Under the pieces are notes generated by a model, which was given only the letters and a program-made list of their open reading frames with translations, ran no database searches and was not told the DNA's origin. Shown piece by piece: positions 1,649 through 52,640 of a stretch of 64,000 bases of DNA; the first letter of the stretch is position 1, and every line of letters begins with the position of its first letter. The stretch is from a virus, in IMG/VR virus record IMGVR_UViG_3300034061_006808, positions 4,336-68,335 of that record; one strand, 5' to 3'. The position numbers were made by a program, and so were the translations under genes.

Positions 1649-1652
1649 CACA

Positions 1653-1898: not shown

Positions 1899-1903
1899 AC
1901 ACT

Positions 1904-4882: not shown

Positions 4883-6637
4883 ATGACCCCAGAGGAACAA
4901 ACCGCCTACGAAATCCGCAACGACCCGCAACTCTGGTTCGAGGTCTTCGGCACGATCCTCAACCGCGCGGGCGAACTCATCCGCCCCACGGCCAACAGCT
5001 TTCAAGCCCGCGTCTTCGGCGTTTACCGCTGGTGCCGCGACCACCAAAAGCCCTGTCGGATCATCATCCTCAAACCCCGGCGCAAAGGCTCCTCCACCGT
5101 CTCGCTCGCGCTGGCCTACACCCACCTTCGCAACCACATGGGCTACGGCGCTGTGCTCGGCGACGACCTTGGCACCACCGCCAAGCTCATGGAGACTTGG
5201 AACCGCTATGTGGAGCACGACAAATTCAAGCATTGGGGCAACGAACCCTCGTTGAGCAAGCGGGCATTCAGCCACGGCAGCAAGGTTTACGAGGAAACCG
5301 CCAACGATCCCCGCGCCGGTATGGGCGGCGACATCCATTTCCTGCTCGCCTCCGAGGCCGCGCACTACCGCTCGAAAGGCAAAACCTCGGGCGAGTATGT
5401 GATGCAGTCGGTGATGAACTCGGTGCCGAACCTCCCCTCCTCCTGCGTGATCATCGAATCCACGCCCAACGGCACGCAGGGCGTGTTTTACAACACTTGG
5501 CAAAACGCCGTGGACTTGTCCGAATTCCAAGCGGGCCGCGAGGGCAACGGCTACATTCGCATCTTCGCCCCGTGGTTTGAATTTGACGACAGCCGCGCCA
5601 AGCTCGCCCAAGGCGAGGAGCAGGCGATCCTTCACGACCTCGATGCCGAAAGCCGCTACAACGGCGAGATCGCGCTTGTCGAACGCCACCGCGTCAGCGC
5701 CGACAAGATCAAGTGGCGCAGGCAGATCATCGACTCCCCGGCCTGCGGCGGCGACCCGCGAAAGTTCCAACAAGAATACCCCACCGACGATATAAGTTGT
5801 TTCCTGCAAAGCGGTTCTGGTCGCTTCGACCAAGAAGGACTGGAAATCCTCGGCGACCGCATCGCCCTCGGCGTTGATCCCAAATACGGCATCCTCGAAA
5901 TGCCCGAAGGCGCGGAAGCCCCCACCTTCATCCAGACCGCCCGCCACGAAGCGTGGGTGCGCATTTGGGAAATGCCCAAGGAGGGCCGCCGCTACATTGG
6001 AGCCAACGACTTCATGACCGGCGAGCAGGCGAGCGGCTCGCGCCGGGAAAGCGATTGCCACGCCACCCTGGTGGGCCGCGCCGCCTACATCGACGACGAC
6101 AAGGAACCCCACAAAGCCGCCATCGTCGCCTCCTTCCTACCCGACGACCGCCAGAAAGACTTGGACATCGTGGCCGAGCGCATCGGCCTCATGAGCAAAT
6201 TCTACGGCGGCTGCCTCATGGCCCCCGAGGTGAACAATCTGCATGGAATCATCGAGCTTCTCCGACGCCATGGAACCAACCTCTGGATGCGCAAGAAGCA
6301 AGGCACCGGCAAGACCGTCCTCGTCCCCGGCTTTCAAACCAACACCTCGACCAAGCGCCAGATCATCGGCGAACTCGCCACCCTGATCCGCGAGCAGGAA
6401 CTCGAAGTCCCCTGCCCGCACATCCTCGCCGAACTGCGCAACTTCATCGTCCACTCCGATGGCACCGAAGCCGCCGCCGAAGGAGGCCACGACGATTGGG
6501 TAATGTCCCTCGCCATCCTCACCCATGTCCTCCCTGCCGCCAGCCTCTTCGAGCCGCTGGAAGCCAAGCTCGCCCGCGAAGCCCGCCGCAGCGCATTCTA
6601 CCGCCCCACCCGCCAGCTTGTGGCCGAATGTCGTTGA
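4883..6637 (+). CDS. terL: Terminase large subunit
   Basis: Walker A LKPRRKGSST, Walker B-like LLASEAAHY, coupling motif ESTPNG, FQQEYP, nuclease C-terminus HDDWVMSLAI. Confidence 0.93.
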   Translation: MTPEEQTAYEIRNDPQLWFEVFGTILNRAGELIRPTANSFQARVFGVYRWCRDHQKPCRIIILKPRRKGSSTVSLALAYTHLRNHMGYGAVLGDDLGTTAKLMETWNRYVEHDKFKHWGNEPSLSKRAFSHGSKVYEETANDPRAGMGGDIHFLLASEAAHYRSKGKTSGEYVMQSVMNSVPNLPSSCVIIESTPNGTQGVFYNTWQNAVDLSEFQAGREGNGYIRIFAPWFEFDDSRAKLAQGEEQAILHDLDAESRYNGEIALVERHRVSADKIKWRRQIIDSPACGGDPRKFQQEYPTDDISCFLQSGSGRFDQEGLEILGDRIALGVDPKYGILEMPEGAEAPTFIQTARHEAWVRIWEMPKEGRRYIGANDFMTGEQASGSRRESDCHATLVGRAAYIDDDKEPHKAAIVASFLPDDRQKDLDIVAERIGLMSKFYGGCLMAPEVNNLHGIIELLRRHGTNLWMRKKQGTGKTVLVPGFQTNTSTKRQIIGELATLIREQELEVPCPHILAELRNFIVHSDGTEAAAEGGHDDWVMSLAILTHVLPAASLFEPLEAKLAREARRSAFYRPTRQLVAECR

Positions 6638-11413: not shown

Positions 11414-11425
11414 TTCCCGCAATCG

Positions 11426-14400
11426 ATGAATTACCTCAATCAAAAACTCCAGCGTGCCATGCAGGGTCGGGACGCCGGGGGGATGCAGGAAGTTGCCAGC
11501 CAAGCCGCCAAATTCGGTTCGCGCGACATCATGCGCCAAGCCGAGCGCGGGCTGCGCGAGATGCAGAAGGAGCAGGAGCGCGCCCAGCGAGACATGGTGC
11601 GCGCCCAGCGGGATGCCGAGCGGGCCGCCCGCCAGCAGGCGCGCGACACCGAGCGTGCCGCTCGCGAGCAAGCGGGGCAATTCAAAGGCGATGCTGTTGC
11701 ATTTTTCACTCAAGGCAGCGGATCGTCCCGAAAAGTCATCCCCATCACCGCTCCTTCGGGCGGCGTGATGCGCAAGTGGGGCAAGAGCGGCGTGCTGTGG
11801 GACAGCATCACCGGCAAAGCCTACGCGATGGACCCCTCCACGCGCGGCATGACCGAGATCGATCCCGACAAGGATGGCAAGATCGTGGTGAAGGACGGCC
11901 ATGTTTACAAGGTGGTCGAAGGTCTCCCGTGGAAATGGGTGGGGCTGGATTCTGATAAACTCGGCACCGATCCCGCGCTGGCCAAGGAACTCGCCGCCAA
12001 GACCGCCGATGCCAAGCGCGAGGCCGATCAAGCCAGCGACAAGGCATCGGCCACCAGAAAACTTCTTTCCGACAACGAAAAGCGCATCAAGGCTCTGGAA
12101 AAAGAAGAACTCCGAGCCACCGGCGACGAGCGCCTGCGCATCACCAACGAAATCGCCGACCTCAAGGGCAAAAACAAGGTCTATGCCGAGCGCTTGGAAC
12201 TCGAACAGATCGATGCTCACAAGAAAAACGCCTACCGCCAGCAGGTCGAAAGCGCAAACGACTCGCAGCTAGCCGCCAACCTCGCCGAGCGCCAGAAGAT
12301 GGCCTACACCGGCGACATGAAGGGCGGCCTCGGCCTCCAAAGCGCGCTCGACCGCATTTCCCAAGCCCAGCAGAACGCTATCAAATACAGCGGTAATCCC
12401 GCCGACGATATATTCAATTCAATTACTGCTGGTGCAGAGAGCATGTTAAAAAACATGCAAGCGCAGGATATAGCTTTTTCAAACGCTTGGAACAAAAACA
12501 TGGTCGACCGCGCGATGGACGAGGCCATCGCCATGGGCAACCAGAAAGCCCGGAACGCCTTCTGGGACGACCTCCGCGCGCTCGACGCGAAGGCCAGCAT
12601 CAAGCTCACCGGCACGAACGAAAAGGGCAAACCTACCGGCATGCTCGCCGATCCGCGCCTTTCCTCCGAGGTCAAAACCAAAATCCAAGACTTCATCAAC
12701 AAAACCGGTCTCACCGAGATCCCTCGCTCTTGGATGACGCCCGAGGCGCAGGAAGCCCGCGCCAACGCCAAGCAATTCGGCTACTTCGATGTGAGCCTGC
12801 CCAAGGACTTCTCGCTCAAGAACGGCGCGATCACCACCACCCGCGACGAGCAGTCCAACCTCTGGGGCATCCCCATGCCATGGACCAAGAAGGGCGATCC
12901 CGTGGATGTCGGCACCTACAAGTTCGACAACAACGGCGTGCCCTTCATCGAACTCAACCGCGAGAACCGCCTCTCGCCCTCGCAGTTGAGCGGCAATCCC
13001 TTCGACGGCGTGAAGGAATACCTGCCCATGCCCACCGAGTGGACCGAGCAGTTCAAGCCCACCAAGCCCAGCGACTTTTCCCTCTCCATGCTCCCAGCCG
13101 ACAAGCGCAAGGAGGTGATGGATAATTACAAAAACGAACTCTCCAGCTACCAGCAGACCGCCAAGGACGCCTGGGCGGGCCAGAAGATGGATGCCGAGCG
13201 TTTCAACGATGTGCTCACCCGCTGGAGCGTGGCCTCGCCCGAGCAACGGCAAGAGATGATCGCGGAGCTTGATCCCCGCCAAGCAAAGTTGCCCGCCAGC
13301 GAGCGCCGCCTCGATACCCGCTCCATGTTCGAGGCTGGAGCCATCAGCACACAAGAAGCACGCCTGCTGGAAAAATCCTTCTACGGCACCGATCCCGCCA
13401 TGCCATCGATGAACGAGGCGTTTGAGGATTGGAAGAAAACCACACCCGCTGGCAAGGAATTCACTCAAAAATACAATGCGATCGGTAGCGACAAGAGCGC
13501 TGGGCTTTTCTCATTTCTGCCACTTCCCGGAGGACTTTCAAAACTTATCGGAGCAGTCGGAGATGCCGACGCCCTTGCTCGAAAGACCACTTTTGAGGCC
13601 GATGCCAAGCAGGAGTTTTTGACCGACTTCTACAAAGAAAACTCTCGCCGCGTGGATTTCAGCGATGCCGCGTTCACGGCAAGCCGCAACGAGATATTAA
13701 AAGATGTGCCCCTCTTTGAGTGGGCCAACAAAGGGCTTTTTGATATTTACAACAGCACGGCTGGATCGGCCATTGGAATCCTCGGCGGAGCCGGGGCGCT
13801 TACGGGCGATTGGCTCTACAACAAAGTGACAGGCGACAACCTGCTCTCCGACCAAGCCAAGCAACTCATCGGCAGCCAGACGATGAATTCCCTGCGCAAT
13901 ATGTCCGCAGCGGTATCCGATCGCATCGAGCCTTTCATTAAAACGGGCGCTCTGCTTTCCCCCGGCACAGCCATCAACTCCTTGGCGATGGGTGCCCTTG
14001 ATCCCAATGCCCCCAAAGACCTCTGGACTGGCAAGACCGCAGGCCAACTCAACCGCGCTTGGGACAGCTACATTTCCGATATCGATAACGGCACTTTGAC
14101 GCAAGCCAGAGCGAGGGAGCATGAAGCAAAGATCAGCAAGCTCACCGAGCAATTTTCCTCCATGCGCGCCGCCGCCTCCGGCTGGATGGGATCAACCGGA
14201 CTCGAAGACGGCGCGGGCTACCGGATGACCTACGAGAACAGCTTCAATGATCCGCGCTCGGCCATGGCGCAATTCTCTGCCGCCTACCAACAAACCCGCG
14301 ATCCACGGCTTGCCGCACAAGCTCGGAGCGCCTCCTTCAGCAGCCAATCCGAACTGGAAATCCAGCGCGCCGCCTCCGACTACGCCACGGCCAATGGCAC

Positions 14401-17400
14401 CATCACCGAGTCCACGCCCTTCGGCGGGTTTACAAGCTCTATTCGCGGCGGCTTTGTCGCCCCGCTCACCGAATATGCCATCGAAATCGGAACCAACCTG
14501 GCGGGATTTGCCTCGGGCGGCGTCCTCTTCGGAGCCAAGGCGCTTGGCACAGCCACACGCGTGGGATCGACACTCAACAAAGCCGCTGGAGCCATCTCGA
14601 CTTTTGAGAAGCTTGGAGATGCCACGGCGGATGCGTTTCGCAACCTCGGCAAAATCGACCGCGCTCCCGGCACTACGCTCACCGCAGGCCAGCGCGCTTG
14701 GAACACCAGCGTGGACATGGCCAAGCAAGTGGGAGTTTCCGGCGGCGGCGAGTTTTTTGAAGAGGGCGTAGCGGCCTTCGGCGAAGCCGGGGCATCTTTT
14801 GGAGATGCGATCAACCAAGGCATCAGCGGCTTTTTTGGAGGCGTTGGAATGTCTGCCGTTCACGCAGCAGGCGGCGCGGCATTAAGCGCTGTGCAGCAAA
14901 TCCGAAGCGAGCAAGCTCAAAACAAGGCGCTCACAAAGTTTGTTTCCGATTACAACAAGCAAAACAACACAGGCACGCCACTCTCAATGGATGTCGCCAA
15001 GCAGGCTCAAGGCTACCAATCCCCGCAAATGGTCGCCATGCTCAACAGCCAGCGTAAAGACCTCATCATCCAGCTTTCCGATGTCAACAATGCAATCCGC
15101 GCCACGCCAAACCCCCGCATCGTTCCAGGAGCGCTTGCATACACGCCCAACCCCAAGCGCGTCGGATTACTGAAAGAAAAAGCCCGCATTGAAAATGCGC
15201 TGGCATCCAACCTTCTGGATACCGCTGCCATTGGAGAACAAAGCGTGCGCGCCGCGCAGGAAATCAACAGGCTCCCACAAGTCCAGCGTGATGTGATCGA
15301 TGCCGCCCTACGCGTCGCCAATGGCGTTCCCCTCTCTGTCGATCAAGAGACAATTCTCACCAACCACACCACGCCTTCCGGCAAGCCCGCCGTCACCAAA
15401 TTCGGCGACGACTTCGTGCTCACCGACGATTTCCGCGAGGAGATCAAACAAGCCGCCCCGCAGACCGCCAAGGCCCCCGCCCTTCGCAAGACCCAAGCCG
15501 AGCGCGATGCCGAACTCCGCGCCAAGTATGGCGGCATCTATCGCATGATCAATGGCCGCCCCGTGTTCATTGCCGATAAAAAACCCGCCACTCCCCAGCA
15601 ACCCGCCCAACCCGCAGGCCAAGCACCCGCTCCGATCCAGATCGATACCTCCAACATGGTGCCGCCAAGCAACATGGCGAACCAGCAACCTACTAACAGG
15701 GAAAATCCGCAAAATTCGGAGATAGTAGGTTCCACCCCGACTCAAACCGCTCCAGCGCCGAATGTTCCTGCGCCGAATACGCCTTCCGCGCCCACCCCGC
15801 CCGTCAGCCAATCCTTCTCCACGCCAGACGGCGAGCAAGTCACCGGCACCTTTGAGAAGCAACCCGATGGCAACTGGCAGCAAACCAGCCCCGAGGCTCC
15901 CACCTTCACGGTCACGCCTTCCGACACGCAGTTCTTCCAAACCCTCGAAGACAAAGCCGCCTACGCGCTCAACCCGCAAATGCCTTCGCCAGTCCAGCCC
16001 GGTGAGTTTGGACAAGAAGGCTACACGGCCCTCACGCCGGATCAACAACCCCAAGGAGGTGACTCCACCAATGAAAACCAGTTGCAGCAGCAAACAGGCC
16101 AAAACGCCGCCGCGCCCGATGCCCAAGCAGGCACCGCGCCCGATGCCGATGCCCAGAGCGTCGGGACGGGGCCGGTAGTTGATACACCCACCCAGCCCGC
16201 CGGATCACAGCCCGATGGAGCCTCAGACGCTCTCCCCCCTCCACTCCCCGAGCCTGATCCGGCGGATGTCTTTTCCCAACCCGTCAACCGTGGCACGGCG
16301 CTCCTCATGCTTCAGACCGCCTCGCCTTGGGTCACGAACACGCCGCTTGTCGTGCGCAGCCAGAGGTTTTTCCTTAACGAAAAAGGCACTCGCGCCATCA
16401 CCCAGGAGGAATTCACCGCGCTTCCTGCCGATCAGCGCCAAGAGTGGAGCCCTAACGACACGCCGATGTTTGTTTCCAACGGGCGCATCCACATCGATGA
16501 AGCGGCCTTCACCGAATACATTAACTCGGTTGTCCCCGAGGCCCGACAGGAAAAAATCCAAGCCGCCCTGCGCGAGGAAGTCATCCATGTCGCCACTTTG
16601 AACGCCCGCAAATGGGACAAACTTTCCGAAGACTGGCGCAACCTCCCCGACGAAGCCAAGAAGCGCGTCATCGAGACCTACTACACCGATGCGCTGGCCG
16701 AGGCGGGCGGCGACTGGACCCAAGTCGAAGTCAACGCAGGACAAGCCGCCAGCGAATTCTGGCGTATGTATCTCAATAGCATTTTGGATGGCCGAACCAC
16801 CGAGCAGATCGACATCGACGGCGAGGTATCCCGTTACGCCGCGCAAAACCCCGGCTTTGCCGCTCGCATCAAGCAAGCCCTCGAAGACATCGCCCGCTGG
16901 CTGCGCGACGAATTTCTTGGCCAACTTGATCCCGACACCCGCGCGAAATACGAATCTGTTGCCGAGACAATTGAAAAAAAGATCGCGGAACTGGAAGCCC
17001 TCTACGGCATCACCACGCCCGCTTCAGCCGAGAACCAAGCCGCCAGCGCGATGGATGCCGCAGAGCCTGTGGCCAACGCCCCGCCCGCGCCTGTGGATAC
17101 CCCCGCCGCCGAGACAGCCCCGCTTGCCCCACTTCCCGAGAAAGCCGCGCCGCAGAATCAAGCCTACATTCCGAAACCCGCGAAAGGTTATCGCAAGTGG
17201 CGCGGAGAGGCCGTGTTTTCTTCGCTAAACAGCGCCGCAGCAGCCTTTGGCTACAAGATCGTGGATACAGGCATCGCCTCGCCATACACGGCCTTTGGCG
17301 AAACGATCAACTACGGCACCCAGCTTTACGACAAGCTCGAACCTGGATCCGAACTCGGCCAATGGATCGATGCCATGAACGCAGGGAAAAACCCCGCAGG

Positions 17401-20400
17401 CAACGCCATCATCCAAGCCGCCAGCGAGCCCGGCCTGCACCGCGTGTGGTATGGCCACGACGCCATCACCAATCTTGACAATGTGGTGGCCGAATTTGGC
17501 TGGGGCGCGGTGCCGGAATTCATCGGCCAGCTTCTCAAGGATTTCACCACGAAAAGCGGGCTTCCCTTCCCCGGAGTGGAACTTCTCGTCCAAGGCGGCG
17601 CTGTTTCAGACCGCTTCGCCACGGACTGGTTGAGCACGAACATTGGCGAGGTCTTTGGAGCAGGCTTCTCTTTCCTCGGCACCTACCGCCTCGCCCGTGC
17701 CGCCAAGAGTGGTCGCTTGAGCAAACCTCAAGTGATCTTCGCCACGGTGGGCATTGGCCTCAAACTCGTCTCCGGTGCGCTCACCGCCCAGCCGTTCCTG
17801 ATCCTCTCCGGGCTGGCCGACACGGCAATCCTCCTTACGAACCTCGACCAGGTGAAAGCCGCCTTCAAGAAAGGCATCGAGGAATACAACAAAAAGCCCA
17901 AGGCCGTGCGCGACCTCTACGATCAAGTCGCCCCGCCGCAGTTCGCCTTTTCTCCCAACACCACCAACGCCCCACCCATACCGCAGGATGGACAAGAGGT
18001 TAAGTCGCTAGGCTCATATCCTGGAGACGCGGGTTCAATTCCCGCTCCTGCTACCCCCGTGGAGACCGCCGAGGCTCTTCCACCGCCGCTTCCGCCCATC
18101 GAGGAAACGCCGGGCATCACCGAACCTATCCCCGAACCTATCCCCGAACTTTCCCCCGAAGGAAATGTGGAAAGCGAGACCGAAGCCACGCCGCCGCCGT
18201 TACCCGACGAGCCGGTTGCCGCCGTGGAAACAAATGTTCCAACTCCGCAGGCTGCCGCCACGGTGAAGCTCAAAGACGCCGCCGAAGCCCTCGGCCTGCC
18301 CGTGAAGGAAGTGCTGCGCCTCACCAAGGCCCATGTCCCCGGCAATCCCCGCACGCTCGAAGGCGAGAAGCGCGGGAACAACTGGTTCTTCGCCCCCGAG
18401 GAGATCGCCCGCTTCCAAGCCGACCGCGACTCTCTCGCCTCGCCGAAGCTGGAGAAACTCCAAGCCGTGGCGAGCAACACGGCCACCGACGAGGACTTTG
18501 CCGAACTCGCCAAAGATGGTTTGGTGGAGACCCACCGAGGCGAGCGCGTGATTACCAATAAAGGCTACGACCTCATGGCCAAGGCTGGCACACCGCCCCG
18601 CCTTACCCGCAAGGAGCGCATCGAGGAGATTGATGCCCAACTCGGCCCCGTGGAGAAACCCCTCGACCTCAACCCCCGCGTGAAGAAGGTCGGCAAGCTC
18701 TATGTCGTGCGCCAACCCTCCGGCGACTCCATTCCCGCCAATGTGAGCATGGCCGACGACCGCGCCGCCCGCGAGGAGGCCAACCGCATCGCTGCGGAGT
18801 TTGATCGCATCGACGCCGAGCGCGAAGCCGCCCTCGAAGCCCAGCGTGCCGAGGAAAAATCTCGCCGCGAAGCCGAAGAAGCCCTCGAAGCCGATCAGGA
18901 ACTCGCCCCCAAGTTCCAAGCCCTGCTTTCCAACACCCTTTACGACTACCGCAAGGCCCGCGAGCGTGGCGCTTCCAACCCCGAGGCCGAGGAGGCATTC
19001 ACCCGCCAACTCGTTGCCATCGGCAAAAAACTCGGCATGCGCAACCTGCACCCCGGCTTGCTCGCCATGCACTTGGTGCGCCCGCCAGTCGGCCCGCTCT
19101 TGGTCAAACAAGCGCAGGCGATCAGCGGCGTGCAAGAGATGTTGCAGGATGCCACCCGCGAGATCGCTCCCGGCACGCTTTCCTTGCGCGAGGGGCTTTC
19201 CAGCCCAGCCGGTTTCCTTGGCCTCGACCAGTCGCCGCTTTCATGGGGCCAGATGATCCAATTGGGCGCGCTCACCTACGAAGCGCTCCCCAATGGCAAC
19301 CTGCGCATCCGCTCGGGCAAAACCCCCGAAGACATCAAGGCCGATCAATCCGATACCGCCGCGCAGGAATACTACGACCAACTCAAGACCGAAACCGAAG
19401 AAGCCGCCATCGAGATGGAGCGCCAATCCAGCCCCACCGGCTACGAGCTTCTCGACGCCGTGGTGGAAGCCGGTGGCCTCCCCTCGCCCAAGAGCCAAGC
19501 CGCAGAGTCCCATCGCGGCGAATTGAAGCTCCTTTACGAGGGCGCGGCAGCCACAGGGCGCGGAGCCTACAAAGGCAAAGCGATCACCAATTTCCAGCGC
19601 AACAAACTCTTTAGCCGGGATGCCCAAGACCTCGACAGCCTCGCCGCCCGCCTGCGCGAGCATGGGTTTGCCGTGGAGACACCCAGCGATGTGCTCGACC
19701 TCATCGATCAACGCCTCACCTCCGGTCGCCCGATGTATGGCACGGCGGTGAGTATCGACGACGGCATGGGCGAGCGCTTCGCCGCCACCAAGCCCCGCGT
19801 GCGCCTCGCGAATGCCGAAGTCACCACCGAGCCTGGCATCCTCTTCGTCAAACGCGCCCACCACGGCACGCCGCACAAAGTGGATCGGTTCAGCCTGGAG
19901 AAGATCGGCTCCGGCGAGGGCGCGCAGGCTTATGGCTGGGGGCTGTATTTTGCGGAAAATCAAAGCGTTGCCGACGATTATAGGAATAACCTTTCAGACG
20001 GAAGACCGTTGTTGAAAGTGGACGGCCAATGGAAAGCTCCATCGGCAAGCGACCCATTAAGCATGGCCGCATTCGATGCGGCGCAAAAAAACTTTGACTA
20101 CGAACAGCTTCAAAAAGAAGCCGAGGAAAATGTTGCTTACTGGACAAACAAAACTCCAAACAAGAATTTTTCAAAAGAAGACTTGGCGGAATCCGCGAAA
20201 CAAGCCCGCGAACGACTTGAAGCAATAAAAGAACTTCGCAGTAAAACCCAAGACGCTCCGTTGGATATTTCTGTGGGAGGCAACCTCTACACCGTAGACC
20301 TCGATGTCGAACCGGAAGACATGCTCGATTGGGACAAGCCGTTGAGTGAGCAGAGTGAGAAGGTGCAGGCTGCACTTGCGGAGATGAATCCAGATTATCG

Positions 20401-23400
20401 TCCAGATAGCGATGAATACGACGCCAACGAGCAGGGGCAAATTACCTACACACGCATCACAAGCGATCAAGCGCGATTCGGAGGGATAAATCCAGAGATG
20501 ATGGCATCGGTTACTTTGAGGGATTACGGCATCAAAGGCATCCGCTACCTCGACGGCGGCAGCCGCTCTGATGGGCAAGGAACCTACAACTATGTCGTCT
20601 TCGACGAGAACCTCATCCGCATCGTCGCGGAGAACGGCCAGGAGATCGGCAACGCCACGGTGCTTTCCGCGAAGCCCACAGCCGCCCAGCGCGCCTCTGC
20701 GAAAGCCTACACCGAAGCCAACGGCAGCCAGCCAGCAGATGTCGCCGAAGATGCCGTGGCCATGCAGCTTGCCCAAGTCGCATCGCCATTCCGGCAGACT
20801 ACCTACCAACTTGATCTTTTCAACCGCCCGGCGCCCGCCAATGAACCCGTTGAAGTCACCGAGGACGAATACGACCAACTGGTCGAGCGTGGGCTGGCTG
20901 GCGACTGGAAAGCCTTGGCAAACGCCGTGGCCATGCGTGGACGCGCCTCCGCGATCCTTCCGCAACTGGTCGATTCGACCATCCCGGCATGGAATCCGGT
21001 CGGAACAAAAATCACCGAGACAAAAGACTTCGCGGCCCTGATGATGCCGATCCGCTCGCCCTACCATGAAATGATCAAGGTGGCCGTGCTGGACGACGAT
21101 TTGAACATTGTCAGCGCGCAGATCGTCAGCGTCGGCTCGCTCAACGAAGCCATGGCTCATCCCCGCAATGTTCTTGGGTTTTTGGCAAGGGTCTCGGAGC
21201 GGTATGGCAAAAAATACGAAAACATTATCATCTCGCACAACCATCCGAGCGGCGACCCCACGCCCTCGCAGGCGGATTACAGAGTTCAAAAAAACTTCGA
21301 GGAACTCGCAAGCGCGCTGGATTTCAATCTGATCGATCATGTCATCACCAACGGAACAAAGTATTATTCGCTCAAGGGTTTCGGATCAGGCTCGTTTGAA
21401 ACCCCTACACAGGCGGAGTGGGAAAAGGTATCATTCGATACACTTGCTACGGCGGAGTTGCCTTTCCAGTTTGCAGCCATCGCCAAGGAATTAAGCCAGT
21501 CCAATCCCGACGCCGGACACATTGTCTATCTCAACACCAAGTTGCGCGTTCTGGCCGTCGAGCAGTTCAATAAGAAAAACCCGACCGCACAGGAACTCGG
21601 CCAGCAAATTTTCCAGACCGTTTCAAGGGAAGGCGCATACGCTTTCACCGTATTGCTTCCCACGCTGAAAGGCGCGGGAGTCGATCCTGGATTCGCGCAA
21701 GGCAGATTGGTTCAGCAATTGCGCGAAGTCACAGGAAGAATGCAAGTGACCTTTATCGATGCCGTGAAAGAAGACGGCAGCAACTATTTCTCCTTCAAAG
21801 AAGCCGGACTTCTTGAAGAACCGGCCACCTACTTGGCAGCCAAGCCCCGCCAAGCCCAACAACTCGACCTTTTCGCCGACTCCTACAACCAGACCGCGAA
21901 GCCGTGGACTCCAAGCTGGCAGGCCAAGGCCGACACGAAGGTGGAGAACGCGCCGGAACTCAAACTTGAAAAGCAAACCGAGAACACCGCCCGCATCGAA
22001 GACTTCGGCGAGAAGATCGAAGGCGCTCGCAAAGATCTCTGGCAAAAATACACCGACGCCATCATGGCCGATTTGCCCGAGGATTCCGCCGACATCACCT
22101 TGGCGAAATTCCTCCCCGAGCCGGATTACGAAGCCATGCTGGCCAGCGGCATGGAACCCCGCCGAGTCGCCGCCGTGCGTGCGTTGCGCGATTTGATCCC
22201 AAGGAAACCCTCCACCGGCTGGAAGCTGCGCCGTTGGACCGAAGGCTTGATCAGCACGCGCACGATTATCCAGCGCCTTGTCGAACCGACCAACCCGATT
22301 TCCATCGAACGCTTCAACGCGATCCTTGCCGACTCGCCCGAGATGCGCGACCAGGTGGACCTCTACGACGCCCTCGGCTACCCGCTCATGCTGGAGGCCA
22401 AAGGCTGGAAACTCCGCCAGAAGCAAGGCTACACCACCTTCAACGGCCAGCCCACCAAAGCCAGCGACATCGTTTCCTACATGGAGAAGGACTACCGCAT
22501 GGACTGGAACCTCACCTCTGTGGTCCCCGATGGCGACTGGAGGCGCGGCTACAGCCAGACGCTTGAAAAATTCCGCGACCAGCTACAGGCCAAGGCCGCG
22601 AAGCCCGCCGAAGCCAAGAAGATCGACTTCCAATTCTACAGCGACCGCACGACTGGAGACATCTTCATTGGCAAAAAAGGCGCGAGCGGCGTGATTCGCC
22701 TCAAGCCCGGATTCAAGAGCGTGAAAGAGGCGAGCAACTGGCTCACTGACAACTACGACAACCTGCGCTTCCAATGGGAGGAAATGCGCAAGGAGCCGAT
22801 CCTTCGCAAAGCCCTCAACGATCCGCGCACCGGCCCAGCCCGCCGCGAGGGCGATGTCTCGCCCGAGATGTTCACCGAGGCGTTCGGATTCCGTGGAGTC
22901 CAATTTGGCAACTATGTGGAAGGGGAGCGCCGCCAGCGTGACTTGAACAACGCCTTCGACGCCCTCATGGACTTGGCCGAGACTCTGAATGTCCCCACCA
23001 AAGCGCTCTCGCTCGATGGCGCGCTTGGCATGGCCTTCGGTGCGCGAGGCACAGGAGGCAAGCGCCCCGCCGCCGCGCATTACGAACCCGGCCAAGTTGT
23101 CATCAACCTCACAAAAAACGCAGGCCCTGGCAGCTTGGCCCACGAATGGTTCCACGCGCTCGACAACTACTTCGCCCGCGTGGAGCGCACCGGCAGCACC
23201 GCGCCAAGGGAAGTGGATGAATACGCCACCGACTCGATCCGCAATCCCAAGAATGTGCGCCCCGCCGTGATGGACGCCTTCCGCGCCATCCGCAACGCCG
23301 TGGGCACGGGAACCTTCGCCGAGCGCAGCAAGAGGCTCGATGCCACCCGCTCCACGCCATACTACGGCACCACCATCGAGAAAGCCGCCCGCGCGTTCGA

Positions 23401-26400
23401 GGTCTATGTGGTGGACCGCCTCGCCAAGAGCAGCGTCACGAACGACTACCTCGCCAACATCGACTTCAGCGGCGACGCCTACCCGTTCCCGCAGGAGATG
23501 GAAGGCGGCATCCGCCAAGCCTACGATGTCTTGTTCAACACGCTCGACACCCGCGAAACCGATCAAGGCGTGGCGTTGTTTGCGAAGGCCCGCCGCTTGA
23601 ATCTGAATCAGGAAATCACGCCCGTGCCCATCACACGGCAGCTTGCCGGTCTTCCCAAGCGGGAAGCCTCAAACCGCATTCTTCCCGTTTTGCGCGAGTA
23701 TCAAAAACTGCGCGGCGACGAACTTCCCTACAATGCCGACCTGCAACGCCGTGTTGGATTTTCAGGAAGCACAACCGGAAAATTGGCTTCATACGCCACC
23801 CATTCTTTGGACGACATGGAGCTTGCATTTGCGCTCCCGCAAATCGTCGAAAGCGCGGCACTGGTAGAAACAAATCCCGATAAGAAAAACAACCCGGATG
23901 TTTCAGCAGTCCACCGATTGGTTACGGCGGTGAATATCGATGGAGAGATATATCCCGTAAAAATCACAGTCATTGAGCGCCGAAATGGAACCCTGCTTTA
24001 TGATGCGGTCACCAAAAAAAGTGAGGTTCGTGCCAGTGCCGTTCAGGCTCCCGAAGGAACTTCCACGGCGACCACGAACCTCAACCCAAAGTTGGCAGAC
24101 CTCATTGAAGCTTTCAACTTAAATTTTGATGGATCGCAACCGCTCTTCGCTAAATCCCGCCGCTCGCTGGACACCACAAGCGAACTCTTCGGCGACGAGA
24201 CGCCATTCAACCTAGTCGGCGAAACGCTCCCGCCCGCGCCGGTGAAGGCCGACACGGTGGTGGACGCCCAAGCCCGCGAAGAAGCCTTCCGCAAAAGCGG
24301 GCGCGAGGATGTGGAGGATTTGTTTGGAGATGCATCATCCCCGGCTCCTTCGCCGACAGCCACAGAGTTTGGTTTTACAAGGGAAATCGATGCGCCGATA
24401 GAAAAAATCAAAAAAGACATGGTTCGCTTTGCCTCGGGCATGAGCGGAATAAGCGACCTCGCTACATCCACATTTGTTCGCGGCGGGATGCAGAACTATG
24501 GAGTCGGATTTGATGTCGGCCTTCTGTCTAAAAATGCAATAGAGGCGCTGGCCAACGCGGTGGTGAATCTCGACGCGCAAGTCTTTATCGATTCCGGTGC
24601 ATTCAGTCATTTTATCAAGTCTCAAAAGGCGGAAGAAAAAGGAATTACCTTGAAGCCATTGAGTTTCGATAAAATTTTTGAAAAATACGATTCTATTTTA
24701 GATGCGATTCAAAAAGAAAACGCCGTAGAAAAAGACTATCCTTCGCCCCTTATGGTCATGCCGGACATTATCGGCAACCAAAAGGCATCCTTGTTGTTGA
24801 CAGACAAATATAAAGACAGGATCGCAGTCGAAACAGAAGCGCAGGCACTTACTCCGATTATTCCTATTCCGCTTGGCGAACTATCTCTTGCGCAGGCTTA
24901 CAATAAAATTCTTGAGATACTGAACTCCAACTCCAAAGGAATAACAATTGATCCATCCAAATTTATTGTTGGCATTCCTTCAAACGCGCAGGCTGTCAGC
25001 AGGGAAAAACTTGCGGAGTTTTTATCCGAAGCAAAACCGCCGCGCATTCATTTCCTCGGAGCGGCGGCTGATGTCAACATCAACCCATTGCTCGCGGTTG
25101 TTGCAAAAAGCGCCCCGGACACCATGGTCACGGCAGACGCCAGCAAAGTAAGAAGCGAGATTCTCAATGGCGTGGCTGCTGGAAAGACGCGAGAACAAGC
25201 GATTACCGATGCGCTCTTCCAAGAGGACGATCCAAGCGCGGTTCTGGAAAACTTCAGCAGAGAGATTGCGAGCGTTGAAGACAGCAGCAAACCGTCCACC
25301 CCGTCGCTTTTCACCCAGCCCGCCACCGATCAAGGCACGCTTTTCGACATCGGCCCAGTTGGTCCGCGCACGCTCACCCAGGCTGAAGCTGCCAAGACAA
25401 TCAGCAAACAAAAAGCCGCCGAGGTGCTGGCGGGTTCCAACCTTTCCGACCGCCCGATTTCCACCTACGAGCAAGCCGTGGCCGCGAACAACGCCCACAT
25501 GGGAACCAAGGCCAGCGAGTGGACGGCGGTGCCGATCGAGGAAGTGGTCATCACAGACCAAGGCCCGATGCCTCAATACGATGCGAAACTGACGGCGGCC
25601 TACTCGGGAGCGCCCACTTTATTCCCCGGCGACATGACATCCCCAGCTTGCCAATGGTGCGGAAAGCAGCCGGTGAGAAGGCTCTACAAGATCAAGCATG
25701 ACGCGAAAAAATATACCCTCATGGCGGGGAGCGAATGCTTTACGCATTTCCAAGAGGACAGCGGAGACAAAATGCTGCAAAGCACCAAGAGCGCGCAAAA
25801 CCTTGAGAAACTCAAAGTCGCGCTGGATGCCATTTCAGAACTCAATAAGGAGTTTCGCAGGAGCCGGACAGATTCCTACGGAAGGCCATCGACAAGTTGG
25901 TATAGCGAAGATGCCAGAATTCTGCGCGACAAATTGAAGGAGGCTATCGGCAAGATCGACGCCGAAAGCGGACCCGCCGCCATTACGCGCTGGGTCAATA
26001 CCAAGGGCAAGGATGCCGCAGAATTGATGGAGCAGTTCGCCGTCTTCATGGCCGAACCCAAAACCAAAAACCTTCAAATCAAGGCTCGCGATCTTGATCT
26101 GCAAAGCGTCAACAACGACCTCAAATATCGCGCCCAGCAGCTTCCCGATTACAAAATCGAATCCCTCAATAGGCAAAAAGAAAAACTCGAATCCGAAATC
26201 GCCGAGCTTTCCGGCGCGACCATTCTCGGGGCCAAGCCCGTGCGCGATATCACCAAGCGCAACGAAGCCGTTCAGAAAGCCGCCAACGACTACGCCGAGC
26301 GCAAGATCACCTTGGACGACTACCTCGCCGTTGTGCGGGCCGAGATGCCGTATGCCAAGATGGAAAGCGTGCCGGAGCCAGCCACGCGCGCGGACATGGA

Positions 26401-29400
26401 TGCGCTCACCGAGGACAAACGCGGGCGAATTTTTGTTCCATCAAAACTACTCAAAGGAGGCGAGCGCGTCGGCCTCCGCCTGGATATTCCCGCCTACCGC
26501 GACCACGGCACTTGGATCGTCGCCATCCACGAACCCCGCAGCACCGCAAGCGCTGGCAAATCCCTCGGCTACGAGTCCGTGGCTATGGTGCGCAACGCCT
26601 CGTTCGAGAGCAATGCCGACGCCGCACTCAACATTGCTCGCGGCCTTAAACCGAAATCCACCATTGCAACCATTGAAGGCGAGTGGGCTACAATTACTCC
26701 AGATGAAGCCAAGACCCGCGCCGAGGAAGCTATGAACGACTCCGAGTGGGTGCAAGTGGGCATGAACCCCTTCCGCCATTCATGGTTCTACAACCGCGCC
26801 ACCGGAGCGCCCGTTGTCTCCGCCAGCGAGGTTTTGCAAGTCGGCGGCTTGGTCCTCGCCAAAAACCCAGTTTACACAACCGCCGACGACCGTCGCTTTA
26901 TGGGCAATAAGTCTGGCGTCCTCTTCGCCAAATCGCGCCCCGCGCGTATCCTTGCCGAGACAAAAGGCAAAGTGGTCGCAGGCACGGCGGTGGGCACACG
27001 CAATCCGACCGGCAAGAACCCAGACGGCTCCGGCACGGATGCCTCGATGCTGGTGGGCCTCGATGCCATGCGCCAAGACCCCGCGCTGTTCCGCAAGAAC
27101 GCCATGCTGTTGGCCGACTACCCGCTGGTGGCTGGCCGTGTTCCCGAGGCCGCCGCGCTTGCCCGCAAGGTGCGCGCTCCGCTTGTGAGGGCGCAGGCCC
27201 GATTGGAGATTAAGACCGACGAGCACAAGAAAGCCCGCGAGGCGCTCCAAGTCGAACTCGCCCGCCAGCAGGGCGTGCGCAAGGCGAAGGTGAAGATGGC
27301 CGCCGTGGATGCCGCCATCGAAGCCAAGCCGGACGAGAACTCCCGCAAAGTGCGCGGCTTGGTCTCACGCATCACCGCCGCCCGCACCGCCGCCGAGAAA
27401 GCCAAGACGGAGGTCGATGTCGCCAAGAAAGCCTTCGACAACGAGGTGAAGGCCATCCTCGCCAACGAGCGCCGTTTCCCGACCTCGATGGCCGAGAGCG
27501 TTTACCAAGCCCTCACCGAGATGGCCGTGGACAACCTGGAGCGCCTCATCGAACTTTTCCCCGCCGACCTCCGCGACATCGCCCGCCTCTGGTATGATGG
27601 CGCAAACATCATCGCGCAGGATTTCGCCACCCGCTTCGGCACCACGCTCAACCGCTCCGCCGCCGTGCTGGCCGTGTTCAGCCCGCAGAAGGATTGGTTC
27701 ATGAATGTGGCCCTCGCCGAGCGCATGATGAATGTCTGGCGCAACCACCAAGACACGATCTTCGACGATGCCATGGCGGCCCAATACATCCGCCGCAGCG
27801 GCGAGCCCCAGCCGCAATGGGACAAGAAGCTAGACGACTACAAGCGCGACGCCCAAGGAAACATCCTCTACGAAAAAGGCGCGAAGCCGGTTACCAACGA
27901 CGCGGGCGATATCGTGGATTGGGAGAATTGGGACAACACCAAGGCGCGGGAGAAACTGGAGGAAGCCAAGGCGGATATTGAAAAACTCAAAGGCAAAAAA
28001 CTCAAAGACCTTCCGTTAAAGTGGCAAGCCCGCTTCATCCGTATGTGGAGCGAGGTTTACGACTCACCCTCCTTCCCCGTCGTCTCGCCCGATGGGCGCT
28101 TCGGCGATCCCATGCTCACCGAGAAAGGCGAGCCGCGCAGCATCGCGTGGGGCAGCTACAACACGATTGAAAAAGCGATCAACATCCTCTCGGCTCCGGC
28201 AGAGGCCGAGATGCAGACGATCAGCGCCGAACTCGGCGTCCAGCACAAGGTGCGCTCGTTCTACAACAACATCGTGGACCCAGCGAACCCCGATGGCCAT
28301 GTCACGATGGATACCCACGCCATCGCCGCGATCCTGTGGCAAGCCCTCTCCGGCAACAGCCCCGAGGTCAGCCAGAATTTCGGCCAAGGCGGAGCCGCTG
28401 GAAACGCCAACCTTGGCATCAGCGGTCTCTACCCCGCCTTTGCTGAAGCCTATCGCATCGTTGCGAAGGATTTCAACTTGCTTCCGCGCGAAGTCCAGAG
28501 TATCACTTGGGAGGCCGTCCGCTTGCTTTTTCCGGCGAAGTTCAAGAGCCAGAAAGCCAATGTCAACAAGGTCCGAGCGATCTGGAAAAAGCACGAACAA
28601 GGCATCATCACCACCAAAGAAGCCCATGATCTCATATTCCGACTCACCGACGAATGGAGCAATCGCGACACCCTCCAAGGCCGACGCGGAAAAACTGCGT
28701 CTGAAGCAATTGCGGATGGTTCAGGAGTGGGCCGACCGGACTGGGCAGCGGTTGCCGGGAACCGTGTCAATAATACTGGAAGACAGGCGCAAGCCAATGA
28801 CGCAGGAGAGCTACCTGCGGACGGAGGGACTCGGAGTGGAACTGGACGACCTGCTGGAGGACGAGGAGGCGCTGGCCGAGCTTCCCGAGTGGTTCCAGCA
28901 ACTCCCGAGGGGGGACAGCCCAGGGCTGTATTAGGGGCCAAGGCGCGCCCGACCAAAGGTTATGGCGCGGAGCCATGGCGTTTGACAAAGAGGGAATTTT
29001 TCCACCCTCAAATCAGCCGAAAATTTATTGAAGCGGCAGATTCTCCAGATGGAACCTTGATTGGAACCATCGGCGATGTAGTTCATGGTGCAAAAACAAG
29101 GAGGCTTTTGGATGCCGTTCTTGATGTCCCAATAATGATACTCCGATACCCCGTTCAAGGCGGGAAACGAGTGCCAACCGGCAAAGACTTCACATTTGAT
29201 GGAGCTTCTGGAAACTTCAACGGCAAGCCAGCGATCTTCATTAACCCTAATGAAAAAATGGTTGGAACGCTGTGGGAAGAATCCGCTCACCAAATGCGCG
29301 CCGCAAAGGGGAGACCCATCAGGAAGACCGATATTTCAAAACTCATAAACGACGACAATTTTTTTGATAACGAATACCAAAACGACCCAGAAGAAGTATC

Positions 29401-52628: not shown

Positions 52629-52640
52629 TATTTCTCCACC

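What the first reader, a model, noticed from the sequence alone, without database searches (positions are those of the whole stretch)
17982..18053. Complete initiator-like tRNA-Met encoded in frame inside the giant protein gene
Seen: a full cloverleaf on the coding strand with all four stems paired, a CAT anticodon, a 1:72 mismatch, an A11:U24 pair, A73 and a TTCAATT T loop. It is simultaneously read as (P)QDGQEVKSLGSYPGDAGSIPAPA(T) in a Pro-rich interdomain linker with no frame disruption. Established: the 1:72 mismatch and purine11:pyrimidine24 are initiator tRNA determinants. Only two of the three anticodon-stem G:C pairs are present, and CCA is not encoded. Inference: (a) dual coding, where RNase P and 3' processing release a tRNA and cut the 21-kb mRNA, capping output of full-length protein; (b) a replacement or decoy against host tRNA-fMet nucleases such as VapC; or (c) a recently captured relic or recombination target. 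Intact stems argue for selection or recent capture.
Basis: partly seen in the sequence, partly recalled or inferred. Interest (0 to 1): 0.88.

Follow-up and report, generated by a model that had tools for sequence, protein, structure and literature searches.

The report
Initiator tRNA nested in giant phage gene
A complete, conserved initiator-type methionine tRNA gene is written in frame into a flexible linker of a temperate lake phage's 7,146-codon virion-protein gene, so the same 72 bases appear to serve as both tRNA gene and protein code.

Summary
Window 17982-18053 (+) is a tRNA-Met(CAU): ARAGORN, and Rfam tRNA at 57.8 bits. It is the only tRNA of a complete 68-kb temperate phage. It lies in frame in a Pro-rich linker of a 7,146-codon polyvalent-protein ORF.

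It is not a chance match or a fresh relic. Two relatives, about 68% protein identity nearby, keep it at the same site and phase. It is an island of nucleotide identity between indel-rich flanks: 92% of third codon positions are identical, against a 26% gene mean. Homologous tRNAs elsewhere show compensatory pair changes.

Of ten family members seen as DNA, six are nested in ORFs, all in one phase: four in giant genes and two in the gene after the capsid gene.

The tRNA looks adapted to being translated. U38 replaces the A38 that would give an in-frame TAA. One relative instead shifts the frame with a D-loop deletion and a V-loop insertion.

Initiator marks are present: 1:72 mismatch, A11:U24, G2:C71, C3:G70, A73. 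The real attP is elsewhere, beside the integrase.

Processing, charging and any effect on protein output are untested. The closest case in print is selC nested in selB (Mukai 2021). This scan has noted in-frame tRNAs in other phage genes before.

The parts
17982..18053 (+). Initiator-type tRNA-Met(CAU) gene, 72 nt, discriminator A73 at 18053. The next bases, CC (18054-18055), are the first two of CCA.
   Evidence: ARAGORN. Rfam RF00005 at 57.8 bits, E 7.3e-10. Own model R1 at 100.4 bits. Conserved in G001 and G002.
18015..18017 (+). Anticodon CAT.
   Evidence: anticodon at position 34. Invariant in the 9 aligned family members.
18017..18019 (+). In-frame codon TAT (Tyr). Its last base is tRNA position 38, here U. 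The A38 found in 12 of 12 host initiators would make this codon TAA.
   Evidence: G001 and G002 have the same TAT.
11426..32866 (+). 7,146-codon polyvalent-protein gene that contains the tRNA. It lies between the terminase-like and portal genes.
   Evidence: ORF list and translation. Pfam RadC JAB, LPD5, LPD3, LPD1 and DUF7178 above cut-off; ART-PolyVal below cut-off. PHROGs terminase 4883..6637 and portal 32886..35042.
17936..17981 (+). Variable, Pro-rich linker codons upstream of the tRNA. They follow the conserved domain that ends ...RDLYDQV.
   Evidence: DNA alignment A1 shows indels and low identity here. Protein alignment A2.
18056..18256 (+). Variable Pro/Glu-rich linker codons downstream of the tRNA, about 67 codons.
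   Evidence: Alignment A1. Indels at 18125-18141 in contigs from independent metagenome runs.
18269..18427 (+). Next module of the giant protein, a weak helix-turn-helix match.
   Evidence: Pfam HTH_17, E 0.0084, 16.8 bits, below its cut-off of 27. This is a lead only.
47621..47977 (+). 118-codon gene just after the major capsid gene. It holds no tRNA here. Its counterpart in relative G005 carries the homologous tRNA in frame.
   Evidence: tblastn of P0015 against the window: 35% over 60 aa, E 0.003. ORF list. Synteny with the capsid gene.

Best explanation
This is a working tRNA gene nested in frame in a protein gene. The 72 bases encode an initiator-type tRNA-Met and also 24 codons of a disordered linker of the phage's giant polyvalent virion protein.

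Inferred mechanism:
1. The gene has no promoter or terminator of its own, so the tRNA is transcribed as part of the long late structural transcript.
2. On RNA copies, or stretches, not covered by ribosomes, the cloverleaf folds.
3. Host RNase P cuts at its 5' end. Host 3' enzymes and the CCA-adding enzyme finish the 3' end (the window encodes ACCC; two relatives encode ACCA).
4. Host MetRS charges it (CAU, A73).
5. The host formyltransferase accepts it (1:72 mismatch, G2:C71, C3:G70, A11:U24).
6. It supplies initiator tRNA late in infection.

Copies that are translated through give the full-length protein. A processed copy can no longer give it, so the two products compete for each transcript.

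Shown here: the tRNA is real, conserved at nucleotide level, structurally constrained, in frame, and recurrent. Inferred: transcription context, processing, charging, use in initiation, and the trade-off with protein output.
For: 1. tRNA calls: ARAGORN and Rfam at 57.8 bits. It is the only tRNA in each of three complete genomes, G000, G001 and G002.

2. Same site and phase inside the open giant ORF in G001 and G002, where the flanking protein is 69 and 67% identical.

3. Nucleotide-level selection. In the 24-codon tRNA window, 92% of third positions are identical in all three genomes. The mean over 3,143 windows of the same gene is 26% (sd 12%), and the tRNA window ranks top. In columns with identical amino acids, 18 of 19 third positions are identical in the tRNA against 650 of 2,069 elsewhere (Fisher p 1.4e-8). 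The flanks are indel-rich.

4. Structure. Among the window, G001, G002 and G005, 3 of 21 pairs show compensatory changes (2:71, 12:23, 50:64); 1:72 is unpaired in 4 of 4 and A11:U24 is kept in 4 of 4. With nine family members, 93% of cells pair and 12 of 21 pairs have double changes; 0 of 500 shuffles reach this. That alignment was fitted to the model.

5. Frame adaptation. 12 of 12 Hyphomicrobiales initiators have the loop CTCATAA and hold stops in the frame the phage uses. The window clade (3 of 3) has U38, giving TCA TAT. G005 keeps A38 but has a D loop one base shorter and a V loop one base longer, which puts TAA out of frame.

6. Recurrence. Of 10 family members seen as DNA, 6 are nested, all with tRNA base 1 as codon position 2:
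- three giant genes of this clade;
- a different giant ORF of at least 4,582 codons in G055;
- the gene after the capsid gene in G005 and in L040.
In the L040 family, conserved domains flank the tRNA peptide (64% identity to P0030).

7. A profile of the peptide finds it deep inside six further giant proteins of 3,411-6,268 aa. They share only scattered modules with this one.

8. Initiator class. Model R1 scores host initiators at 65.7-72.7 bits in 41 of 41 Hyphomicrobiales genomes; the next listed hit is 57.5 or below. Those initiators have the same A29:U41, G30:C40, G31:C39 stem. The determinants are as described in PMC2528185 and PMC4611024 (passages).

9. Contigs from three independent lake metagenome runs bridge the tRNA. 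Listed variants flank it and none is listed inside it, though 30 rows were not shown.
Against: - No expression data. No RNA run holds the locus, so processing, CCA addition, charging and formylation are untested.
- U38 departs from the A38 of all 12 host initiators read. A38 takes part in the special anticodon-loop geometry of E. coli tRNA-fMet (PMC2528185, passages), so initiator activity could be weakened.
- 13:22 is A.A.
- G001 has A18 and G55 in place of the usual G18 and U55.
- The 29-31:39-41 G:C pairs are eroded in relatives: G005 has U31.U39, L040 has C31.A39, and L039 has a U31:A39 pair in place of G:C.
- The copy in the G055 giant gene has U11:A24, U37 and G38, and falls below Rfam's tRNA threshold. 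Some nested copies may be decaying or doing something else.
- A 192-nt context does not fold better than shuffles (z +1.18), and its minimum-energy fold lacks the full cloverleaf.
- No promoter- or terminator-like excess near it.
- Only three genomes carry it at this exact site. More distant homologues of the upstream domain lack it there: 0 of 13 proteins and 0 of 6 loci.
Confidence: 0.7

Rival explanations
1. It is a cis-acting tRNA-like element rather than a decoding tRNA. The cloverleaf is kept as an RNase P or ribosome-pausing signal that cuts or punctuates the 21-kb mRNA. That would set the dose of full-length protein or separate its halves. The released RNA has no role in translation.
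For: - It sits at module junctions of several giant genes.
- It has no transcription signals of its own.
- Some copies lose canonical tRNA features yet stay in frame: G055 has U11:A24, U37 and G38 and is below the Rfam threshold.
- Mukai 2021 proposed an expression-switch role for nested selC (PMC8124441, passages).
Against: - RNase P recognition needs only the acceptor and T arms (general knowledge, recalled). Yet the CAU anticodon is invariant in 9 of 9 aligned members.
- The MetRS and formylase determinants are kept: A73, 1:72 mismatch, G2:C71, C3:G70, A11:U24.
- D-arm and anticodon-arm pairs covary.
- Four family members are free-standing tRNA genes.
- It is the only tRNA of the genome.
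Confidence: 0.12
2. It is a conserved nucleotide 'joint' for recombination. The tRNA-derived stretch persists because it offers sequence identity at which phages swap modules of giant genes. Its RNA is irrelevant.
For: - It lies exactly where homologues of the upstream domain switch to unrelated downstream modules.
- Near-identical peptides occur at different positions in otherwise mostly unrelated giant proteins and in a capsid-adjacent gene.
Against: - A recombination joint needs identity, not base pairing. Compensatory double changes that keep all four stems and the kept 1:72 mismatch are not explained.
- This role could exist in addition to a tRNA role.
Confidence: 0.08
3. It is a neutral relic of a captured tRNA gene, or an attP core for integration into the host tRNA-fMet gene.
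For: - The phage is temperate: a tyrosine integrase at 52608..53798 (PHROG 1, E 7e-55).
- Integrases often target tRNA genes (general knowledge, recalled).
- tRNA genes can be captured by phages.
Against: - A separate tRNA 3' fragment (T arm, acceptor strand, CCA) lies at about 52517-52548, directly upstream of the integrase, which is the usual attP layout. The tRNA-Met is 34.5 kb away and is full length.
- A neutral relic would not keep 92% of third positions against a 26% background.
- A neutral relic would not show compensatory changes.
Confidence: 0.04

Closest known systems
selC (tRNA-Sec) nested inside the selB ORF of Alphaproteobacteria (Mukai 2021, Int J Mol Sci 22:4605, PMC8124441; abstract and passages read)
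   Same: - A complete sense-strand tRNA lies inside a protein ORF and is read through as amino acids.
- Both frame and tRNA are kept across relatives.
- The proposed consequence is that tRNA processing and full-length protein are alternative fates of one transcript.
- The evidence is bioinformatic only.
   Different: - There the tRNA forms a C-terminal extension of a cellular gene whose product binds that same tRNA. Here it is an initiator-type tRNA-Met, 6.5 kb into a 21.4-kb phage virion-protein gene with 14.8 kb of coding sequence after it.
- No functional link to the host protein is evident here.
- The same tRNA family recurs in several unrelated genes.
- The G005 copy, in a C-terminal tail, is the nearest to the selB layout.
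Bacterial initiator tRNA-fMet, as in the Hyphomicrobiales genomes read here
   Same: - CAU anticodon, A73, unpaired 1:72, G2:C71, C3:G70, A11:U24.
- A29:U41, G30:C40, G31:C39, as in 12 of 12 host-order initiators.
- Best class match of model R1.
   Different: - 72 nt, not 74, with a remodelled D loop (GAGGUUA, not CCCGGUAG).
- U72, not A72.
- U38, not A38.
- 13:22 is A.A.
- CCA is incomplete.
- It is encoded inside an ORF.
Free-standing phage tRNA genes, including members of this same tRNA family: L039, L042, L051, L029
   Same: Homologous sequences (R1 at 71-77.5 bits). They are presumably made to supplement or replace host tRNA during infection.
   Different: Those lie in gaps between genes or in tRNA clusters, and the ORFs over them look spurious. 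The window's copy is part of a conserved 7,146-codon frame.
Polyvalent proteins of phages and conjugative elements
   Same: The host gene is a giant multi-module protein with LPD1, LPD3, LPD5, RadC JAB and ART-PolyVal-like domains.
   Different: My six full-text searches found no report of a tRNA gene inside such genes. I did not read that paper or its supplements.
In-frame tRNAs nested in other phage genes, noted earlier by this scan (e1-5872641, e1-5965788; AI notes, not checked by me)
   Same: A complete tRNA in frame in loop or linker codons of a phage gene, with cloverleaf and frame both kept in relatives.
   Different: - Those are other tRNA identities (Arg, Gln, Asn, Cys, Gly) in other, small genes.
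- Here it is an initiator-type tRNA in giant polyvalent genes and a capsid-adjacent gene.
- Here there are visible sequence adaptations to the frame.

Membership tests
tRNA (Rfam RF00005) | Covariance-model score above the curated gathering score, over the full model | tested here: met
   57.8 bits against a gathering score of 29, model positions 1-71 of 71. ARAGORN agrees.
Bacterial initiator tRNA-fMet | CAU anticodon and A73 discriminator | tested here: met
   Invariant in 9 of 9 aligned family members.
Bacterial initiator tRNA-fMet | No Watson-Crick pair at 1:72 (PMC2528185 passage; PMC4611024 passage) | tested here: met
   C1 x U72 in the window. Unpaired in 4 of 4 and in 7 of 9 family members.
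Bacterial initiator tRNA-fMet | A11:U24 in the D stem, a secondary formylase determinant (PMC4611024 passage) | tested here: met
   4 of 4 and 9 of 9. The divergent G055 copy has U11:A24.
Bacterial initiator tRNA-fMet | Three consecutive G:C pairs at 29-31:39-41 (PMC2528185 abstract) | tested here: inconclusive
   The window has A29:U41, G30:C40 and G31:C39, so the strict rule is not met. However, 12 of 12 chromosomal initiators of Hyphomicrobiales read here have the same A:U, G:C, G:C stem. Relatives G005, L039 and L040 keep only G30:C40.
Bacterial initiator tRNA-fMet | Anticodon loop CUCAUAA with A37 and A38. This is a conserved feature, not a formal identity element. | tested here: not met
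   The window clade has U38 (3 of 3). L039 and L040 have C38. G005, L042 and L029 have A38. In this frame A38 would give TAA.
Bacterial initiator tRNA-fMet | Charged by MetRS, formylated, and used in the P site for initiation | not testable with these tools
   No RNA data. Needs bench work.
tRNA gene nested inside a protein ORF (Mukai 2021 type) | Entire sense-strand tRNA inside an ORF with no stop, kept in relatives together with the cloverleaf | tested here: met
   The same phase holds in 6 of 6 nested members.
tRNA gene nested inside a protein ORF (Mukai 2021 type) | The tRNA forms a C-terminal extension whose stop overlaps the next ORF's start | tested here: not met
   In the window the tRNA occupies codons 2186-2210 of 7,146. 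G005 comes close: the tRNA is in a C-terminal tail, the stop is 83 nt after it, and the next ATG is 17 nt later.
Polyvalent protein (the host gene) | Giant multi-module ORF with LPD-type domains in a phage or conjugative element | tested here: met
   LPD5 4e-26, LPD3 8e-16, LPD1 6e-13, RadC 3e-25, DUF7178 9e-21. It lies in a virus record with terminal repeats.
attP core of a tRNA-targeting integrase | Partial tRNA 3' segment next to the integrase gene | tested here: not met
   The tRNA-Met is full length and 34.5 kb from the integrase. A different tRNA 3' fragment with CCA lies at about 52517-52548, just upstream of the integrase gene 52608..53798.

The most novel reading that the evidence does not exclude
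A family of 'translatable' initiator tRNA cassettes has spread among temperate freshwater phages by settling in frame into disordered linkers, both of giant injected or virion proteins and of a capsid-adjacent protein. The tRNA itself has been re-shaped so ribosomes can read through it: U38 in place of A38, or a paired D-loop deletion and V-loop insertion. One late transcript then yields either the giant protein or a phage-specific initiator tRNA. That tRNA differs from the host's at the anticodon-loop site cut by VapC-type nucleases, which would give the phage both a dosage switch for the giant protein and a nuclease-resistant supply of initiator tRNA.
Probability: 0.35. Interest if true: 0.88.

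Novelty: new variant of a known kind. Interest (0 to 1): 0.78.

Why it matters
Gene finders and curators treat tRNA genes and protein genes as mutually exclusive. The only report of an entire tRNA nested in a bacterial ORF that my searches found is a 2021 bioinformatic note on selC in selB.

This case adds four things:
- It is phage-borne and recurs in several giant-gene lineages.
- It involves the initiator tRNA, the tRNA that limits translation starts and is a known target of toxin nucleases.
- It lies mid-gene in a 21-kb ORF.
- It shows sequence changes best read as a compromise between tRNA function and translatability.

If the RNA is processed, each processing event destroys one giant mRNA. 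That would be a built-in switch between a low-copy virion protein and a translation factor. It would also be a clean natural system for studying how ribosomes and RNase P compete for one RNA.

There is a practical point for annotation pipelines. They will either drop the tRNA or split the gene, and many short 'proteins' in public databases are translations of tRNA genes.

Tried and rejected
Searches and checks that led nowhere:
- blastn of window 16500-19500 against the phage and plasmid collections: no match.
- Exact 39-mer of the tRNA in viral contigs: 0 hits. A degenerate 41-mer found only the two known relatives.
- Protein-pattern scan of metagenome contigs with alignment A2: 358 pattern matches, none a relative.
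DNA for P0002-P0014 and for the giant proteins P0033, P0038, P0044, P0050, P0145 and P0147 could therefore not be fetched. Their in-frame tRNAs are inferred from peptides only.
- P0012 has a peptide ...THKGQGEAGSTPAPAT at about residue 1480 that could be a tRNA read in another frame. A scan for its DNA found nothing. By hand the acceptor stem fits only with mismatches, so it is left as an unverified lead.
- attP reading: rejected, because the attP-like fragment lies beside the integrase.
- Own promoter or terminator: promoter-like and terminator-like sites in 9000-26000 are at shuffle level, 5 against 4.7 and 28 against 30.7.
- Thermodynamic fold of a 192-nt context: not better than shuffles, z +1.18. 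I treat this as uninformative for a tRNA.
- No RNA holder was listed for the locus, so nothing can be said on expression.
- Similarity between the window's module after the tRNA and the C-terminal domain of the L040 protein: not significant, E 0.92.
- Alignment of the four capsid-adjacent small proteins is weak. Only window-to-G005 homology (E 0.003) and synteny are used.
- The peptide-profile search returned 219 hits, 150 of them listed. Most are short ORFs laid over ordinary tRNA genes or arrays (100 of 150 in the host-type frame; 64 of 150 under 100 aa). I do not count these as nested tRNAs.
- The residue-pair count, 149 of 153 compatible with T-stem pairing, is biased by the profile. It is only supportive.
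- Six full-text searches for a phage precedent, one for papers citing Mukai, and the JC1 and Patience papers (passages) gave no report of a tRNA inside a phage ORF. Subscription journals and supplements were not searched.
Full report
**The observation**

The window is bases 4336-68335 of a 68,335-bp virus record with direct terminal repeats, rated 100% complete. ARAGORN reports one tRNA in it: tRNA-Met(CAT) at 17982-18055 (+). Rfam's tRNA model matches 17982-18053 end to end at 57.8 bits (gathering 29, E 7.3e-10). This is the only gathering-level Rfam hit in the window and the only tRNA in the whole record.

- C1 x U72, G2:C71, C3:G70, A11:U24.
- A29:U41, G30:C40, G31:C39.
- Anticodon loop CUCAUAU, T loop UUCAAUU, A73, then CC but not CCA.

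Two small corrections apply: 13:22 is A.A and 28:42 is U.G.

The tRNA lies in ORF 11426..32866 (+), 7,146 codons with no stop. tRNA base 1 is the second base of a codon. The other two frames of the tRNA hold stops.

The ORF is a polyvalent protein. Pfam finds RadC JAB, LPD5, LPD3, LPD1 and DUF7178 above cut-off, and ART-PolyVal below it. The gene lies between a terminase-like gene and the portal gene.

**Is it more than chance or a fresh insertion?**

IMG/VR holds two relatives, both rated 100% complete: G001 (68.7 kb) and G002 (71.3 kb). Their protein upstream of the site is 69 and 67% identical to the window's. Each has exactly one tRNA. It is a tRNA-Met(CAU) at the same place (52.4 and 57.6 bits), in the same phase, inside the still-open giant ORF.

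In the DNA alignment the tRNA is a block of near identity between flanks full of substitutions and indels.

A codon alignment of about 5,500 codons of the three genes gives these figures:

| Measure | tRNA window (24 codons) | Rest of the gene |
|---|---|---|
| Third positions identical in all three genomes | 92% | mean 26%, sd 12%, over 3,143 windows |
| Third positions identical where the amino acid is identical | 18 of 19 | 650 of 2,069 |

The tRNA window ranks top. Fisher's test on the second row gives p 1.4e-8. Selection therefore acts on the nucleotides, not on the peptide.

Contigs from three independent lake-water DNA runs bridge the tRNA. The listed variants and indels lie at 17512-17947 and 18125-18442, and none is listed inside the tRNA. 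Thirty rows were not shown.

**Structure is what is conserved**

A more distant phage, G005, shares about 48% identity in the upstream domain. It carries a homologous tRNA-Met (58.3 bits) elsewhere in its genome.

Across the window, G001, G002 and G005:
- three pairs change on both sides and stay paired (2:71 G:C to A:U, 12:23 C:G to G:C, 50:64 C:G to A:U);
- 1:72 is unpaired in 4 of 4;
- A11:U24 is kept in 4 of 4.

A pattern scan and record searches added L040, L039, L042, L051 and L029.

On nine sequences aligned to my model, 93% of cells pair and 12 of 21 pairs show double changes. 0 of 500 shuffles reach this, and slid controls pair at 37-46%. The alignment was fitted to the model, which favours the structure.

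**Which tRNA class?**

The model built from the four phage tRNAs finds its best hit in 41 of 41 Hyphomicrobiales genomes at 65.7-72.7 bits. The next listed hit is 57.5 or below. The 12 top hits I read are canonical initiators: C1 x A72, A11:U24, loop CUCAUAA. All 12 have A29:U41, G30:C40 and G31:C39, the same 'two of three' stem as the phage tRNA. The missing first G:C pair is therefore normal for that host group and is not a defect.

The meaning of these marks comes from passages I read:
- the 1:72 mismatch and the G:C pairs, in PMC2528185;
- A11:U24, in PMC4611024.

I chose Hyphomicrobiales only because one distant homologue of the giant protein lies in a MAG of that order. The true host is unknown.

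**The tRNA seems shaped by the reading frame**

In the frame the phage uses, all 12 host initiators contain stops. A 72-nt tRNA with the canonical loop would read TCA TAA.

The window, G001 and G002 (3 of 3) have U38, which reads TCA TAT. G005 keeps A38. Its D loop is one base shorter and its variable loop one base longer, so the anticodon arm is read in another register (CAT AAT CTG) and the frame is restored afterwards.

These are two different routes to an open frame. That argues that read-through matters, not only the tRNA.

**Recurrence**

Ten family members were seen as DNA. Six are nested in ORFs, and in all six tRNA base 1 is codon position 2.

| Member | Setting |
|---|---|
| Window (G000), G001, G002 | Giant polyvalent gene |
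| G055 | A different giant ORF of at least 4,582 codons, at about codon 1,098 |
| G005 | C-terminal tail of the small gene after the capsid gene |
| L040 | Middle of a 208-codon gene after the capsid gene |
| L039, L042, L051, L029 | Free-standing |

The L040 protein is 64% identical to the database protein P0030. Both flanking domains are conserved, and a variable linker follows the tRNA peptide.

A profile of the 36-residue peptide was searched against 1.84 billion representatives. It gave 219 hits, 150 of them listed. Most are short ORFs over ordinary tRNA genes, and I discount them.

Six hits are single, full-length matches deep inside giant proteins:

| Protein | Length (aa) | Position of the match |
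|---|---|---|
| P0033 | 3,878 | 580-608 |
| P0038 | 4,573 | 577-605 |
| P0044 | 3,411 | 602-632 |
| P0050 | 4,353 | 1045-1071 |
| P0147 | 5,444 | 556-584 |
| P0145 | 6,268 | 1438-1464 |

The first five are of the ...GSYP... type, which implies U38. P0145 is of the ...HNLE... type. These proteins share only scattered modules with the window's protein.

Closer homologues of the window's upstream domain lack the tRNA at the equivalent linker: 0 of 13 proteins and 0 of 6 loci. The element therefore came into this site in the window's own clade.

**What it is not**

The phage is temperate, with a tyrosine integrase at 52608..53798. A tRNA 3' fragment (T arm, acceptor strand, CCA) lies just upstream of that gene at about 52517-52548, which is the usual attP layout. 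From memory it looks like a tRNA-Ser end; I did not test this. The tRNA-Met, 34.5 kb away and full length, is not attP.

There is no excess of promoter- or terminator-like sites near the tRNA. It has to be made from the long late transcript.

**How it most likely works**

Shown: this is a structurally constrained, initiator-type tRNA gene that is also 24 codons of a linker.

Inferred:
- The late structural transcript carries it.
- Where ribosomes do not cover the RNA, the cloverleaf folds.
- RNase P and the 3' enzymes release it. ACCA is encoded in G001, G002 and L040; ACCC in the window and G005.
- MetRS and the formyltransferase accept it.
- It adds to, or replaces, host initiator tRNA late in infection.

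A processed transcript can no longer give the full-length protein, as Mukai proposed for selC in selB (PMC8124441). This would suit a protein needed in few copies.

VapC cuts tRNA-fMet between A38 and C39 (PMC4105405, introduction passage), and position 38 or 39 differs from the host's in several members. Stop avoidance explains U38 more simply.

**Evidence against, and limits**

- There are no RNA data.
- U38, A13.A22, A18/G55 in G001, and erosion of the G:C pairs in relatives may weaken initiator function.
- The G055 copy falls below Rfam's threshold and has U11:A24, U37 and G38. Some nested copies may be decaying or may serve only in cis.
- The exact site is shared by only three genomes.
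- The 192-nt context does not fold better than shuffles.

**Comparison with what is known, and novelty**

The nearest case in print is selC nested in selB (Mukai 2021). Its author calls it the first report of a tRNA nested in a bacterial ORF. Six full-text searches found no phage case. Subscription journals and supplements were not covered.

Earlier notes of this scan describe in-frame tRNAs in other phage genes on other DNA. One of them led me to the Mukai paper.

I rate this a new variant of a known kind, for four reasons:
- it is phage-borne;
- it involves an initiator tRNA;
- it lies mid-gene in giant polyvalent genes, and it recurs;
- its sequence shows visible adaptation to being translated.

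Noticed in passing
window 52517-52548 (+), upstream of the integrase gene 52608..53798: A tRNA 3' fragment (T arm GAGGGTTCGAATCCCTC, acceptor strand, G, CCA) sits in an AT-rich gap next to the tyrosine integrase gene. It is probably the attP core. From memory it looks like a tRNA-Ser end, which I did not test.
   Followed up: partly
window: 13 exact + strand copies of TGCCGAGACA (for example 3332, 6670, 9024, 16960, 26953, 32853, 45998): The 10-mer, with a following ATTGACAA-like half, is far over chance: 20 matches at up to 1 mismatch against 3.9 expected. Many copies lie 10-50 nt before gene starts, after a TTGAC-like hexamer. Copies inside the giant gene lack that hexamer. One site about 0.87-0.88 kb upstream of the tRNA is kept in G001 and G002; the window has a 1-mismatch copy at 17107 and an exact copy at 16960. 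It may be an operator- or stoperator-like site. A link to tRNA expression is unknown.
   Followed up: partly
L019 1501-1560 (+) (record G006, IMGVR_UViG_3300042320_001544): A partial tRNA-Lys(CUU)-like 3' part with encoded CCA (27 bits, model positions 8-63) lies at the end of a 138-codon ORF. It may be an att remnant. The next ORF, 1639..2778, has no PHROG match.
   Followed up: partly
L002 7559-7630 (G001) and L054 1501-1572 (-) (G055): Two independent nested copies both have A in place of G18 in the D loop and G in place of U55 in the T loop (UGCAAAU). This may be covariation of the 18:55 tertiary contact.
   Followed up: no
P0012 (5,617 aa), residues about 1465-1490: The peptide ...STAERLTHKGQGEAGSTPAPAT in a linker of another polyvalent protein could be a tRNA-Met read in the other open frame (ACT CAT AAR would spell CTCATAA). 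Its DNA was not obtainable, and by hand the acceptor stem fits only with mismatches.
   Followed up: partly
L029 1501-1572 (-) (Hyphomicrobiales genome G027, contig 9): A 72-nt initiator-like tRNA-Met (72.7 bits with R1, U1:A72 paired, CCA encoded) is squeezed between a stop codon 8 nt upstream and an ATG 6 nt downstream. It may be a prophage copy of the same family in a bacterial genome.
   Followed up: partly
One search, loose ends at window 17983-18027 in runs X2 and X4: Other contigs in the lake metagenomes carry related initiator-like tRNAs. Their 5' halves differ from the window's at 4-7 of about 40 bases, and they have other T stems and AT-rich upstream flanks. One sits at higher depth (34.6). 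The tRNA family is common in these lakes outside this phage.
   Followed up: no
Proteins P0019, P0022, P0024 and similar: Database 'proteins' made of repeats of ...WSSSVARRAHNPKVVGSNPAPAT... are translations of tandem tRNA genes. Many short entries in protein collections are tRNA genes read as ORFs.
   Followed up: no
L020 15761-18949 (G005): In G005 the counterpart of the last roughly 1,100 residues of the window's giant protein is encoded about 5 kb after the capsid gene. The gene order therefore differs between these related phages.
   Followed up: no
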